Source of the DNA: Candidatus Gastranaerophilaceae bacterium
GTDB taxonomy: Bacteria; Cyanobacteriota; Vampirovibrionia; Gastranaerophilales; Gastranaerophilaceae
Assembly: GCA_045635965.1 (NCBI GenBank)
Contig: JAZTWQ010000004.1
Coordinates: forward strand, 36,204-100,203
DNA length: 64,000 nucleotides
Reading direction: 5' to 3'
Part shown: positions 56,904 through 57,725 of the stretch, piece by piece
Numbering within the stretch: position 1 is the stretch's first letter
Layout: the number at the start of each line of letters is the position of its first letter
The notes under the pieces: generated by a model
The model's input: only the letters and a program-made list of their open reading frames with translations
The model's database searches: none
Told to the model about the DNA's origin: nothing
Translations under genes and position numbers: made by a program

Positions 56904-57725
56904 TTACCAATCAATCTGTTTTCCATACAACCAAGGCATAGTTTCTTTTTCAAGCATCCACGCACCACAAGAATATCCATTAAACTCACCCCCCGTTTTG
57001 GGATTACAATAATCTTTTACTGGACGATCAATATCATCTCTTATTCCAATTGGTATTATGCCCCTTTTACTAATCCTAAAACGAAATTGATCAACACCAT
57101 AGGTATTTGGTCCTTTTTCACCATTTAAATCAACGCGCATATCACCACATAATTCTTTTAAATATAAATTATTTTTATCTTCTACTTGAAACTTACATTT
57201 TGCGTTTGTAACCCAAATATTCATAAACAATGTTCCATCCGGCAATCTATAAATAGGTGTTCCCAAAAAATCAAATTCTTTTTTATTTTTATTATGCAAC
57301 CACTTACCACCAAGAACCAATTCATCATCCTCTATATATTCCCCCTTCAAACCCGCTGGAACAAGATATTTTACAAAATTAACCGATAAAAATCCAACAT
57401 CTCCCTCTAAATCCCAATACTGCGGTGCACCGTATTTTCTTATAGATTCATTATAGGTACTATTTAACATTGAATATATTTTTTTATACTTAGAAACTAA
57501 TACTTTTTCCTCCACTCTCAACTTAATCGCTGGAATTAAAAAAGCACAAATAACCCCTATAATAACAAGAACAATTAAAACTTCCGAAACAGAAAATGCA
57601 CATAACGATTTTAATCTAAAATTTTCATCTTGAACACTTATTTTTTGCCCTTCAGGAGGATTTAGCGGACTACCAATTGCCCCCCCCCCTAGTAAATCGC
57701 GGGTTTCCAGCGTTTTCGTCAACAT
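56904..57725 (-). CDS. pilin-like protein, subfamily B, intact copy (leader G10 tract in frame)
   Basis: AGGAG-N8-ATG. MLTKTLETRDLLGGGAIGSPLNPPEGQKISVQDENFRLKSLCA|FSVSEVLIVLVIIGVICAFLIPAI. Also DLNGEKGPNTYGVDQF and YSCGAW. Confidence 0.75.
   Translation of the reverse strand: MLTKTLETRDLLGGGAIGSPLNPPEGQKISVQDENFRLKSLCAFSVSEVLIVLVIIGVICAFLIPAIKLRVEEKVLVSKYKKIYSMLNSTYNESIRKYGAPQYWDLEGDVGFLSVNFVKYLVPAGLKGEYIEDDELVLGGKWLHNKNKKEFDFLGTPIYRLPDGTLFMNIWVTNAKCKFQVEDKNNLYLKELCGDMRVDLNGEKGPNTYGVDQFRFRISKRGIIPIGIRDDIDRPVKDYCNPKTGGEFNGYSCGAWMLEKETMPWLYGKQIDW
57680..57689 (-). repeat. coding-strand poly-G tract, 10 nt
   Basis: C10 counted on the plus strand. Encodes GGG. Confidence 0.95.

What the first reader, a model, noticed from the sequence alone, without database searches (positions are those of the whole stretch)
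56904..57725. Dispersed pilin-like gene family sharing a long conserved leader with a coding-strand poly-G (or AG) tract: candidate multi-locus translational phase-variation system
Six minus-strand loci (ATG at 19109, 25082, 34791, 48444, 52714, 57725) open with the same module. The module is a strong RBS (AGGAG/AAGGAG), then ATG-x-AA(C/T)-AAA-ACG-(CTGGAA or GCTAAA)-ACC-C(G/A)C. This is followed by (C/G)TA and a G run of 10, 11, 11, 11 or 6 nt, or (AG)30 at 34.7 kb. After the tract come CAATTGG or ATTGAC and GG(G/T)CAAAAAAT. In the intact 57.7-kb copy this encodes a 43-aa leader (MLTKTLETRDLLGGGAIGSPLNPPEGQKISV...) in front of a prepilin-type A|F-x-x-x-E plus hydrophobic helix. In all four copies where the leader is fused to the pilin body, there is no in-frame ATG/GTG/TTG between the tract and the FxxxE motif. 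Translation therefore has to cross the tract. The observed states are in frame at 57.7 (G10), 52.7 (G11) and 34.8 ((AG)30). They are out of frame by one nucleotide at 48.4 (G11), 25.1 (G6) and 19.1 (G11). Simple-sequence repeats in 5' coding regions are the established switch mechanism in Neisseria (pilC, opa), Haemophilus and Campylobacter contingency loci. Here the tract sits in a conserved, unusually long (33-43 aa) prepilin leader repeated around the chromosome. I do not recognise this as a described arrangement.
Basis: partly seen in the sequence, partly recalled or inferred. Interest (0 to 1): 0.85.

Follow-up and report, generated by a model that had tools for sequence, protein, structure and literature searches.

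The report
Repeat-switched leader on dispersed pilin genes
An uncultured, AT-rich gut-type bacterium carries six scattered pilin-like gene units that all begin with the same short translated leader containing a slippery run of G (or AG) bases, the classic design of an on/off "contingency" switch, seen here in a lineage where I found no published description of one.

Summary
Six minus-strand units open with a ribosome-binding site, an ATG, 11 conserved codons, then G11, G6, (AG)30, G11, G11 or G10, then a conserved tail. Runs of 10 or more G/C occur 4 times against 0.003 expected.

In every module exactly one frame stays open after the tract. The other two stop within 3-9 codons. The four fused copies have no other start codon. 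As assembled, three are in frame and three are out of frame.

Relatives show the same module with other tracts: G9, G10, interrupted tracts, no tract, and AG/GT repeats. They also show ON/OFF differences at orthologous loci.

The best reading is slipped-strand phase variation of type IV pilin-like proteins, probably in a Melainabacteria-like bacterium.

Caveats:
- There are no read-level data on tract-length heterogeneity.
- The "ON" 52.7-kb copy has a second frameshift in its body.
- Two modules are not fused to a pilin. They head long structured upstream ORFs in front of pilin genes that have their own starts.
- The leader peptide is only weakly constrained.

The mechanism is known (Neisseria opa and pilC, Bifidobacterium pili). 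The shared long-leader cassette and the lineage are new.

The parts
56904..57725 (-). Prepilin-like gene, 273 aa. The leader is codons 1-43 (57725-57597), the cleavage-type site is ...LCA|FSVSEV, and the mature part runs 57596-56907. It is in frame (ON) as assembled.
   Evidence: ORF and translation. AF2 model: residues 1-42 disordered, a helix at 46-98, then beta strands. Four invariant Cys in the alignment of 6 homologs. Orthologs P0127 and P0128 are >=90% identical.
57604..57742 (-). Leader module of the 57.7-kb unit (RBS AGGAG, ATG, 11 codons, tract, conserved tail ...GGGCAAAAAATAAGTGTTC...).
   Evidence: nhmmer with an 11-module profile, E=1e-35. Alignment A1.
57680..57689 (-). G10 tract (C10 on the + strand). 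ON at G10. G11 or G12/G9 give stops after 3 or 6 codons.
52118..52714 (-). Leader fused to a DUF6613/N_methyl pilin-like gene. In frame across the G11 tract, but truncated at 198 aa.
   Evidence: PF07963 and TIGR02532 above their cut-offs. Frame analysis.
52668..52678 (-). G11 tract of the 52.7-kb unit (ON at G11). The ortholog in L016 is also G11 but OFF, because of a 1-nt indel just 3' of the tract.
51910..52131 (-). Second frameshift site (G5, 52127-52131) and the displaced C-terminal 71 codons of the 52.7-kb pilin.
   Evidence: Alignment with the L016 ortholog (CCAATGGGTCCC against CCAAGGGGGACCC) and translation.
47700..48444 (-). Leader (ATG 48444) plus DUF6613-type pilin body (A|F at 48347). 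OFF as assembled. G10 or G13 would join them.
48398..48408 (-). G11 tract of the 48.4-kb unit.
47074..47565 (-). Second, 'AFSVAETM'-type pilin-like gene downstream in the same unit. Its ATG lies in a 9-bp hairpin (47542-47564, repeat element D6).
34021..34791 (-). Leader with (AG)30 fused to a DUF6613 pilin-like gene (256 aa). In frame; the repeat encodes (RE)n.
   Evidence: Orthologs P0135-P0138 have other 5' ends.
34709..34768 (-). (AG)30 tract (CT x30 on the + strand).
   Evidence: TRF: 30.0 copies, 100% matches.
24739..25082 (-). Leader module with a G6 tract (25041-25046), OFF. With G7 it is a 114-codon ORF that ends in a TAG inside the RBS of the next gene.
24915..24945 (-). 13-bp GC-rich hairpin (terminator-like) inside that ORF.
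   Evidence: The RNA fold of 24700-25100 has z = -4.6.
23941..24726 (-). 'AFSLVEAM'-type pilin-like gene with its own RBS/ATG and an 8-aa leader. In a relative (P0297) the homologous pilin is fused in frame to the module.
18589..19109 (-). Leader module with a G11 tract (19063-19073), OFF. With G12 or G9 it is a 173-codon ORF through the palindromic repeats (hairpin 18943-18967; D6 copy 18659-18676).
17822..18523 (-). 'AFSVAEAM'-type pilin-like gene (233 aa) with its own RBS/ATG and a 54-aa leader that contains another D6 copy (18435-18456).

Best explanation
The window is chromosomal DNA of an AT-rich diderm bacterium, most likely of the Melainabacteria/Gastranaerophilales group (inferred). 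It carries seven type IV pilin-like genes in six units scattered among housekeeping genes.

Every unit starts with the same roughly 120-nt cassette:
- a Shine-Dalgarno site and an ATG;
- 11 codons (M-x-N-K-T/M-A/L-K/E-T-R-x-x-L/V);
- a simple-sequence repeat (poly-G, or AG at one locus);
- a tail encoding ~(A)I(D/G)SPLN..GQKISV.

In the fused units this cassette is the N-terminal part of an unusually long prepilin leader of 33-43 aa. The leader ends at a K/C-A|F-x-x-x-E site and would be removed by prepilin peptidase (inferred).

The repeat lies between the only usable start codon and the pilin. Gain or loss of one G, or one AG, by slipped-strand mispairing at replication therefore moves ribosomes between two outcomes. 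In the single open frame the pilin is made. In either of two dead frames translation stops 3-9 codons later.

Each locus would switch on its own, giving a population with mixed pilin repertoires.

Shown here: the anatomy, the frame logic, the conserved RBS, the lack of other starts, and the turnover of tract length, purity and type among relatives.

Inferred: that switching happens at a useful rate, that the leader is cleaved, and that the proteins reach the cell surface.
For: Anatomy and statistics.

Frame logic: in all 11 G-tract modules read (5 from the window, 6 from relatives), exactly one frame is open for 70 or more codons and the other two stop within 3-9 codons. The (AG)30 module was not part of that script. 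It reads in frame as assembled.

Starts: a Shine-Dalgarno-like purine-rich motif lies 6-9 nt upstream of every leader start printed. There is no ATG, GTG or TTG between the tract and A|F.

Pilin nature:
- PF07963/TIGR02532 and DUF6613 hits.
- Hundreds of family members begin MKK..K|AFTLAEVL, which fixes the cleavage site.
- The AF2 model shows a disordered leader, a 53-residue helix, then strands.

Tract variation at homologous sites:
- L003 ortholog G9 (OFF) against window G10 (ON).
- L016 (89.4% nt identity over 15.6 kb): 57.7 ortholog GGGGCGGGGG (ON), 52.7 ortholog G11 but OFF, 48.4 position GGGGGCTGG.
- L015 G10 ON; L013/L014 GGGGGCGG ON.
- ON-phase ORFs elsewhere encode GG, GGG or GGGG, or interrupted versions, at the tract. 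One has (AG)n(GT)n there.

The leader is translated where no SSR exists: tract-less or interrupted leaders are still continuous with the pilin (P0008, P0136/L019, P0138, P0140, P0294, P0297).

Tract purity: four G10-11 tracts are uninterrupted although the flanking module sequences are only 55-75% identical between paralogs. This argues that the tract is maintained or regenerated.

Precedent: tract lengths match known phase-variable genic tracts (G9-21 in Neisseria, PMC5953494; B. breve pilus G-tracts, PMC9187656).
Against: - No read-level or population data. Every tract length is a single assembly consensus.
- The two pairs of independent assemblies of the same strain that I could compare are identical across the modules both members cover, and those tracts are interrupted (L013/L014; L016/L017). 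L017 ends 33 nt before the uninterrupted G11.
- At 52.7 kb the window and L016 share G11. The ON/OFF difference comes from an indel beside the tract, not in it.
- In L016 two of three orthologous tracts are interrupted, so tracts also decay.
- The 52.7-kb 'ON' gene and its L013 ortholog are frameshifted in the body. This fits pseudogenisation as well as general G-run instability.
- The leader shows dN/dS of about 0.5-0.65 and no clear codon periodicity.
- The sequencing platform of the window assembly is unknown, so +/-1 homopolymer errors cannot be excluded.
- No prepilin peptidase or pilus machinery lies in the window.
Confidence: 0.62

Rival explanations
1. Decaying gene family. The poly-G is just a mutational weak spot inherited with a duplicated 5' end. 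The out-of-frame copies (48.4, 25.1, 19.1) and the body-frameshifted 52.7 copy are pseudogenes, with no adaptive, reversible switching.
For: - Body frameshifts in the 52.7-kb gene and its L013 ortholog.
- Interrupted, out-of-frame tract in L016_48.
- The pilin units are accessory: they are absent upstream of tig in relatives with an identical ClpP.
- Weak constraint on the leader.
Against: - Pure G10-11 tracts persist in four paralogs whose flanks are 25-45% diverged.
- At the same position, other lineages carry different SSR types: (AG)30 here and (AG)n(GT)n in P0290.
- The OFF frames keep immediate stops while the ON frame is kept open for 70-430 codons.
- Bodies downstream of OFF tracts are otherwise intact: the 48.4 pilin is open for 215 codons.
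Confidence: 0.17
2. Assembly or sequencing artefact of homopolymer length. All loci are really in frame and constitutively expressed, and the G runs are miscounted by +/-1.
For: The platform of the window assembly is unknown. Short G5 runs also show frameshifts.
Against: - OFF states are also seen in independent short-read-style (MEGAHIT k141) assemblies (L016_52) and in another NCBI MAG (L003).
- The L013/L014 body frameshift is identical in two samples.
- The 25.1 module is G6, a length rarely miscalled.
- The tracts themselves lie in conserved context at homologous positions, so they are not artefacts.
Confidence: 0.07
3. For the non-fused units (19.1 and 25.1; also L015), the cassette is a regulatory upstream ORF rather than part of the pilin. 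Translating it in the ON frame carries ribosomes through terminator-like hairpins and hairpins that hide the start codon. This permits expression of the downstream pilin gene. In the OFF frame ribosomes stop early, the RNA folds, and the pilin gene stays silent. This complements the main explanation rather than replacing it.
For: - ON-frame ORFs of 113-173 codons run to within 11 nt of the next pilin start (25.1), overlap it (L015), or end about 65 nt before it (19.1).
- A 13-bp terminator-like hairpin lies inside the ORF, and the region folds with z = -4.6.
- The start codons of two B-type pilins sit in the 8-9-bp D6 hairpin.
- Many database ORFs of this type end at the same '...APQGL..QC*' point.
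- One compensatory change is visible in the hairpin between copies (my reading of alignment A3).
Against: - In relatives the same pilins are fused directly to the cassette (P0294, P0297).
- In L016 one frame joins the cassette, the repeats and the pilin into a single 430-codon ORF. The long ORFs may therefore be remnants of giant leaders.
- The downstream pilins have their own RBS and ATG, and may be constitutive.
- No expression data exist.
Confidence: 0.2
4. Slippage happens at the RNA level. RNA polymerase or ribosomes slip on the G run, so every locus yields some in-frame product whatever the DNA tract length. This would be leaky, non-heritable expression rather than phase variation.
For: Long homopolymers can cause transcriptional slippage (general knowledge, mainly for A/T runs). 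Nothing here tests it.
Against: - Productive transcriptional slippage is documented chiefly for A/T runs, not G runs (own knowledge).
- It would not explain AG/GT dinucleotide repeats at the same site.
- It would not explain the turnover of DNA tract lengths among relatives.
Confidence: 0.05

Closest known systems
Neisseria opa gene family (CTCTT/CTTCT repeats in the signal-peptide coding region; 4-12 dispersed copies)
   Same: It is a dispersed multigene family of surface proteins. Each copy carries an SSR inside the leader-coding region just after the start codon. Each copy switches ON/OFF independently by frameshift, giving combinatorial repertoires. The repeat range (CTTCT, 7-21 units, genic) is listed in PMC5953494. 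The placement in the signal peptide is from my own knowledge.
   Different: - The repeat is a pentamer, not a homopolymer or dinucleotide.
- The leader is a Sec signal peptide on beta-barrel outer-membrane proteins, not a prepilin leader on pilin-like proteins.
- There is no sequence relationship.
- Here part of the family is bicistronic, with long structured upstream ORFs.
Neisseria pilC1/pilC2 (genic poly-G, 9-20 nt)
   Same: A G tract near the 5' end of a pilus-related gene gives ON/OFF by frameshift. Tract lengths match (PMC5953494; Jonsson et al. 1991 is cited there).
   Different: PilC is a large pilus-associated adhesin/retraction antagonist, not a pilin. There are only one or two loci and no shared leader cassette.
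Bifidobacterium breve sortase-dependent pilus clusters with an intragenic G-tract (PMC9187656)
   Same: It is a gut commensal in which replication slippage at an intragenic G tract decides whether pili are made. Tract-length heterogeneity was shown by error-corrected deep sequencing.
   Different: These are sortase-assembled Gram-positive pili, unrelated to type IV pilins. There are two loci rather than a leader cassette repeated at many.
Type IV pilins / pseudopilins with the prepilin N-terminal cleavage-methylation motif (PF07963, TIGR02532)
   Same: F at +1, E at +5, a ~20-residue hydrophobic stretch, a long N-terminal helix followed by a beta domain, and C-terminal cysteines.
   Different: Position -1 is Ala, not Gly. 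Leaders are 33-54 aa here (up to ~236 aa in one relative's single-ORF reading), against 5-30 aa normally. The globular domains are DUF6613 or unassigned.

Membership tests
Type IV pilin-like proteins (prepilin N-terminal cleavage/methylation domain) | N-terminal motif: small residue at -1, F/M at +1, E at +5, followed by ~20 hydrophobic residues | tested here: met
   All seven genes have A|F-[ST]-x-x-E plus a hydrophobic stretch. TIGR02532 is above its cut-off for the 52.7, 34.8 and 48.3 copies (24.7, 24.1 and 17.8 bits against 16.3). PF07963 is above its cut-off for 52.7, 34.8 and 24.7. The 57.7, 47.4 and 18.3 copies match by motif only.
Type IV pilin-like proteins (prepilin N-terminal cleavage/methylation domain) | Lollipop fold: ~50-residue N-terminal helix packed on a beta sheet | tested here: inconclusive
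   The AF2 model of the 57.7-kb protein shows a helix at 46-98 and then 8 strands, but mean pLDDT is 58.7 from a 6-sequence alignment. Foldseek against the PDB gave nothing below E = 1.
Type IV pilin-like proteins (prepilin N-terminal cleavage/methylation domain) | Processing by a prepilin peptidase and assembly by a type IV pilus / type II secretion machine | not testable with these tools
   No peptidase or machinery gene lies in the 64-kb window. The rest of the genome was not available.
Type IV pilin-like proteins (prepilin N-terminal cleavage/methylation domain) | Short, positively charged leader (about 5-30 aa) | tested here: not met
   Leaders from the only available start are 43, 38, 32 (ON form) and 41 aa in the fused copies. 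Most relatives in the wider family do have short MKK..K leaders.
SSR contingency loci (slipped-strand phase variation) | Uninterrupted repeat long enough to slip (homopolymer of about 8-9 or more) within the ORF or promoter | tested here: met
   G10, G11, G11, G11 and (AG)30 lie 12 codons, or 8 for the AG copy, after the start. The 25.1 copy has only G6.
SSR contingency loci (slipped-strand phase variation) | A change in repeat number switches the reading frame between a productive frame and truncated frames | tested here: met
   In-silico +0/+1/+2 G for 11 modules: one open frame, two frames with stops within 3-9 codons. There is no alternative start.
SSR contingency loci (slipped-strand phase variation) | Repeat number differs among strains or relatives at the same locus | tested here: inconclusive
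   There are differences between species-level relatives: G10 against G9, G10 against G4CG5, and ON against OFF at 52.7. ON-phase ORFs encode 2-4 Gly at the tract. No conspecific genomes with uninterrupted tracts could be compared, and same-strain assemblies were identical where comparable.
SSR contingency loci (slipped-strand phase variation) | Reversible, high-frequency length heterogeneity within a clonal population | not testable with these tools
   No reads were available. One Logan contig (L017) ends 33 nt before the G11 tract, which is not informative.

The most novel reading that the evidence does not exclude
The cassette may be more than a frameshift switch on single genes. It may be a portable, recombining 'phase-variation head' for pilin genes.

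Several observations point this way:
- It is exchanged between loci and gene bodies. Synteny with an 89%-identical relative breaks exactly at its 3' end.
- The same pilin is found with, without, or with half of the cassette in close relatives.
- It tolerates in-frame insertion of palindromic repeats, giving leaders of 100 to more than 200 residues.
- In its bicistronic form it may act as a phase-variable upstream ORF. Translating that ORF would melt terminator-like hairpins and start-codon-hiding hairpins, and so gate a separate downstream pilin gene.
Probability: 0.2. Interest if true: 0.75.

Novelty: new variant of a known kind. Interest (0 to 1): 0.5.

Why it matters
If the tracts do slip, this would be the first contingency-locus system I can find for the Melainabacteria-type, non-photosynthetic relatives of cyanobacteria. 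These are uncultured gut and environmental bacteria whose surface biology is almost unknown. No paper in the searched library links them with SSR phase variation.

It would mean these bacteria bet-hedge their pilin repertoire locus by locus, as host-adapted pathogens do. It would also give a concrete test that needs no cultivation: tract-length spectra in existing metagenomic reads.

There are practical consequences too. Gene callers truncate or mis-start these genes. MAG annotation of such pilins is therefore systematically wrong, and 'pseudogene' calls at these loci may be switch states.

The long cleavable leader built from repeat modules is an oddity for type IV pilin biology.

Tried and rejected
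- Scan of 185,579 species genomes with a strict leader pattern: only two chance hits, in Bacteroidales and Pedobacter. The pattern was too strict. It misses the true relative L003, which has AAAGT instead of AAACC, and the scan could not be repeated.
- Scan of JGI metagenomes with a relaxed pattern: five of six hits look like chance. L011 gave a weak module match (17 bits) that I did not follow up.
- Rfam, at gathering thresholds on the whole window and in E-value mode on the two non-fused loci: nothing credible. A known riboswitch or leader RNA is therefore rejected.
- tRNA scan: none.
- Foldseek of the AF2 model against the PDB: no hit below E = 1, and the model is too poor.
- Codon-position and dN/dS test of the leader: weak and not decisive.
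- Exact-protein look-up of the window's ClpP, to fetch the 19.1/25.1 loci from conspecifics: ten contigs returned, none with a pilin or module upstream of tig.
- Exact look-ups of P0001, P0009 and P0010: not on record.
- Concerted evolution (gene conversion homogenising the modules within the genome) as the reason for conservation: rejected, because paralogs are only 55-75% identical while the 52.7 orthologs are 92%.
- The G8 run at 10363-10370 as a seventh switch: rejected. It is one arm of an intergenic hairpin between rplB and rpsS.
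Full report
CHECK OF THE OBSERVATION

Five of them share this layout:
- a Shine-Dalgarno-like site;
- an ATG and 11 codons;
- (C/G)TA;
- a G run: G11 at 19063-19073, G6 at 25041-25046, G11 at 48398-48408, G11 at 52668-52678, G10 at 57680-57689;
- CAATTGR/ATTGAC ... GGKCAAAAAAT.

The sixth, with its ATG at 34791, starts at the position of codon 5 of the others. It carries a perfect (AG)30 at 34709-34768.

A degenerate pattern for the module hits five times, against zero in 100 shuffles. Runs of 10 or more G/C occur four times against 0.0034 expected, and all four are in the module. 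The only other run of 8 or more, at 10363-10370, is one arm of an intergenic hairpin between rplB and rpsS.

WHAT THE GENES ARE

Seven ORFs on the minus strand carry A|F-(S/T)-x-x-E followed by a hydrophobic stretch.
- Three reach the Pfam N_methyl cut-off (52.7, 34.8, 24.7) and three reach the TIGR02532 cut-off (52.7, 34.8, 48.3).
- One carries DUF6613 above its cut-off (34.8), and the 48.3 copy gives a weak hit below it.
- The protein at the finding's coordinates (56904-57725) has no Pfam hit. Its six-member family keeps four invariant cysteines.
- A low-confidence AF2 model (pLDDT 58.7) shows a disordered leader at 1-42, one long helix at 46-98 and then strands. Foldseek against the PDB found nothing.
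- In the wider family most members start MKK..K|AFTLAEVL.... This fixes A|F as the processing-type site and shows that long leaders are the exception.

The surrounding genes are housekeeping: tig-clpP-clpX, the S10 ribosomal operon, murA, nadB/nadC, ispG and lpxC/fabZ/lpxA. No pilus machinery lies in the window.

Three things point to a Melainabacteria/Gastranaerophilales-like diderm:
- a TIGR03279 'cyano' radical-SAM protein, 461 bits but below its curated cut-off;
- family members labelled Cyanobac... and a truncated 'Candidatus St...', which would fit Candidatus Stercorousia, a Gastranaerophilales genus;
- the lipid A genes.

This placement is an inference. NCBI labels close homologs only as '[bacterium]'.

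FRAME LOGIC

I added 0, 1 or 2 G in silico to the 11 G-tract modules (five from the window, six from relatives). In each one, exactly one frame stays open for 70 or more codons. The other two frames hit stops 3-9 codons after the tract. The conserved CAATTGGTAG...TAAAT supplies those stops. The (AG)30 copy reads in frame as assembled.

As assembled:
- 57.7 (G10), 52.7 (G11) and 34.8 ((AG)30) are in frame;
- 48.4 (G11) needs G10 or G13;
- 19.1 (G11) needs G12 or G9;
- 25.1 (G6) needs G7.

In the four fused copies no ATG, GTG or TTG lies between the tract and A|F. A Shine-Dalgarno-like purine-rich motif sits 6-9 nt before every leader start. Translation of these pilins therefore has to begin at the leader ATG and cross the repeat.

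First, the 52.7-kb gene is ON at the tract but has a second +1 frameshift at a G5 run (52127-52131). The closest ortholog reads CCAATGGGTCCC there. The last 71 codons, with the conserved cysteines, continue in another frame to 51910.

Second, the 19.1 and 25.1 modules are not fused to a pilin. In their ON frames they open ORFs of 173 and 114 codons. These ORFs run through GC-rich palindromic repeats:
- hairpins at 18943-18967 and 24915-24945;
- the 'D6' element GGYGCGTCGTTTTGACGCACC, present at 18435-18456, 18659-18676, 24866-24886 and 47542-47564.

They then end 65 nt and 11 nt, respectively, before 'AFSVAEAM/AFSLVEAM'-type pilin genes that have their own RBS and ATG.

The 25.1 region folds far better than shuffles (z = -4.6). 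Its 13-bp hairpin scores as terminator-like.

The 48.4 unit holds a second pilin gene of this type (47074-47565). Its ATG lies in a perfect 9-bp D6 hairpin.

RELATIVES

The family is rare.
- The 57.7-kb protein has six homologs among 5.8 billion proteins.
- A profile of the upstream-ORF type found 23 proteins among 1.84 billion representatives.
- Both whole-collection DNA scans returned only chance-level matches.

Contigs fetched by exact protein look-up were informative.

L003 is an NCBI MAG whose pilin is a 54%-identical ortholog of the 57.7-kb pilin. It has the same module with G9, which is OFF. G10 would be ON, as in the window.

L016 aligns to window 64000-48357 at 89.4% identity.
- Its 57.7 ortholog has GGGGCGGGGG (ON, interrupted).
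- Its 52.7 ortholog has G11 but is OFF, because of a 1-nt indel just 3' of the tract.
- At the 48.4 position the module is present (GTG start, GGGGGCTGG, OFF), but synteny ends exactly at the module's 3' end. Instead of the window's DUF6613 pilin come palindromic repeats and an AFSVAEAM pilin.
- With +1 nt, the module, the repeats and that pilin form one 430-codon ORF.

L015 has G10 (ON) and a 113-codon upstream ORF. That ORF overlaps the GTG start of a pilin, and the GTG lies in a D6 hairpin.

L013 and L014 come from two samples. Both have GGGGGCGG (ON) fused to the 52.7-type pilin, which is itself frameshifted at a G5 run.

The 34.8-kb pilin has three kinds of 5' end in close relatives:
- a 92% ortholog with a plain MKK|AFT leader and no module (L018);
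- an 86% ortholog with only the pre-tract half, MKNKMAEKRNILKKS|AFT (L019);
- others with tract-less or interrupted long leaders.

ON-phase ORFs elsewhere encode GG, GGG, GGGG, GGM, RG, EE, EGWG or GDG at the tract. One (P0290) has (AG)n(GT)n there. P0294 and P0297 show the module fused directly to B-type pilins, the latter being the ortholog of the window's 24.7-kb gene.

Module identities:
- paralogs within the window: 55-75%;
- 52.7 orthologs: 92%;
- 57.7 orthologs: 80%;
- 48.4 position: 67%.

The modules are therefore old paralogs and are not being homogenised. Four still carry uninterrupted G10-11.

INTERPRETATION

The best-supported reading is SSR-mediated translational phase variation. 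The cassette provides the only start. The repeat decides whether ribosomes reach the pilin. Each unit can switch independently.

Evidence that the leader is really translated:
- the conserved RBS;
- the single open frame;
- the many relatives in which a tract-less or interrupted leader is continuous with the pilin.

Evidence that the repeat is more than an accident:
- pure tracts persist in diverged flanks;
- different repeat types recur at the same site;
- states are mixed ON/OFF, including at orthologous loci.

What is missing is the defining property, length heterogeneity within a population.
- No reads were available.
- The two same-strain assembly pairs are identical across the modules both members cover.
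- L017 stops 33 nt before the G11 tract, which says nothing either way.

The leader peptide is only weakly constrained (dN/dS about 0.5-0.65). Body frameshifts and interrupted tracts show that members of the family also decay. I put the phase-variation reading at about 0.6.

For the two non-fused units the simplest view is that palindromic repeats were inserted between the cassette and the pilin. Direct fusions exist in relatives, and L016 shows a giant in-frame version.

A second view is that the long ON-frame ORF now works as a phase-variable upstream ORF. Its translation through terminator-like and start-hiding hairpins would gate the downstream pilin. This fits the geometry but is untested (about 0.2).

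COMPARISON WITH WHAT IS KNOWN

The mechanism is the established contingency-locus mechanism.
- The nearest architectural parallel is the Neisseria opa family: dispersed paralogs, each with a repeat in the leader-coding region.
- pilC has a genic G9-20 tract in a pilus gene (PMC5953494).
- Bifidobacterium breve shows G-tract slippage controlling pili in a gut commensal, demonstrated by error-corrected deep sequencing (PMC9187656).

None of these is homologous to the present genes.

The different points here are:
- the lineage: no paper in the searched library links Melainabacteria with SSR phase variation;
- the placement of the repeat in an unusually long prepilin leader;
- the fact that this leader is a shared, exchangeable cassette, with variants that carry hundreds of codons of repeat-derived sequence.

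VERDICT

This is a real and well-defined feature. It is a plausible but unproven multi-locus phase-variation system, a new variant of a known kind. Interest is moderate (0.5) and would be higher if the upstream-ORF gating or the cassette exchange proves functional.

Noticed in passing
window 51910-52131 (-): The 52.7-kb pilin gene has a +1 frameshift at a G5 run relative to its 92%-similar ortholog. The conserved C-terminal 71 codons continue in another frame. The L013/L014 ortholog has a different body frameshift, also at a G5 run, identical in two samples.
   Followed up: yes
window 18435-18456, 18659-18676, 18943-18967, 24866-24886, 24915-24945, 47542-47564 (-); L015 7530-7720; L016 19400-19950: A set of GC-rich palindromic repeat elements (GTCATGCCGAA..TTCGGCATGAC; GGTGCGTCGTTTTGACGCACC) sits between leader cassettes and pilin genes. 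They stay in open frames and translate to recurring peptides (VILNLFQHL, MLKQVQHD, RRFDAPQGL). The same peptides appear in the long N-terminal extensions that gene callers give to many DUF6613 pilins (P0143-P0158). They may be MITE-like insertions or RNA structure; this is not resolved.
   Followed up: partly
L016 19284-20575: With one added base at the interrupted tract, the leader cassette, ~230 codons of repeat-derived sequence and an AFSVAEAM pilin form one 430-codon ORF. That would be a prepilin with a ~236-residue leader.
   Followed up: partly
proteins P0014, P0015, P0053, P0054, P0064: Some family members carry two or three tandem copies of the AFTLAE.. N-terminal motif, separated by short repeat-derived segments (for example AFTLAEGATHV...AFTLAEVLITLG). 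This suggests duplication or recombination at the 5' ends of these genes.
   Followed up: no
protein P0290: A relative's leader has mixed dinucleotide repeats at the tract position (ERRERERECVCVCVRVRVC, i.e. (AG)n(GT)n). This is a third repeat type at the same site.
   Followed up: no
L020-L029 versus window 17700-19250: Ten contigs that encode a ClpP identical to the window's have tig-clpP-clpX, but no pilin gene or cassette upstream of tig. The pilin units are accessory insertions among conserved housekeeping genes.
   Followed up: partly
L017 (Logan SRR14556509), end of contig at 15024: This contig is 100% identical to L016 and stops 33 nt before the G11 tract of the 52.7 ortholog. It could reflect low coverage or a graph branch at the repeat or paralogous cassette. 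It is not informative on its own.
   Followed up: partly
window 37372-41073 (-): A 1233-aa protein combines an FHA domain, a RamC-N/lanthionine-synthetase-kinase-like region and an EDR1/CTR1 peptidase-like C-terminus. This is an unusual architecture and was not examined further.
   Followed up: no
window 10363-10370: This is the only other G/C run of 8 or more. It is the 3' arm (C8 on the coding strand) of a GGGG...CCCC hairpin between rplB and rpsS. Relatives have a shorter version. It is ordinary.
   Followed up: yes
L022 5177-5698: An IS200/IS605-type Y1 transposase lies between dapF and rpsJ in one relative. In that interval the window has ~500 nt with no ORF of 110 aa or more, followed by rpsJ.
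   Followed up: no
L011 885-973 (JGI Ga0302135_10044956): A weak nhmmer match (17 bits, E = 5e-4) to the leader cassette, in a 33% G+C contig, with G6 and no pilin downstream. It may be a remote relative or chance.
   Followed up: no
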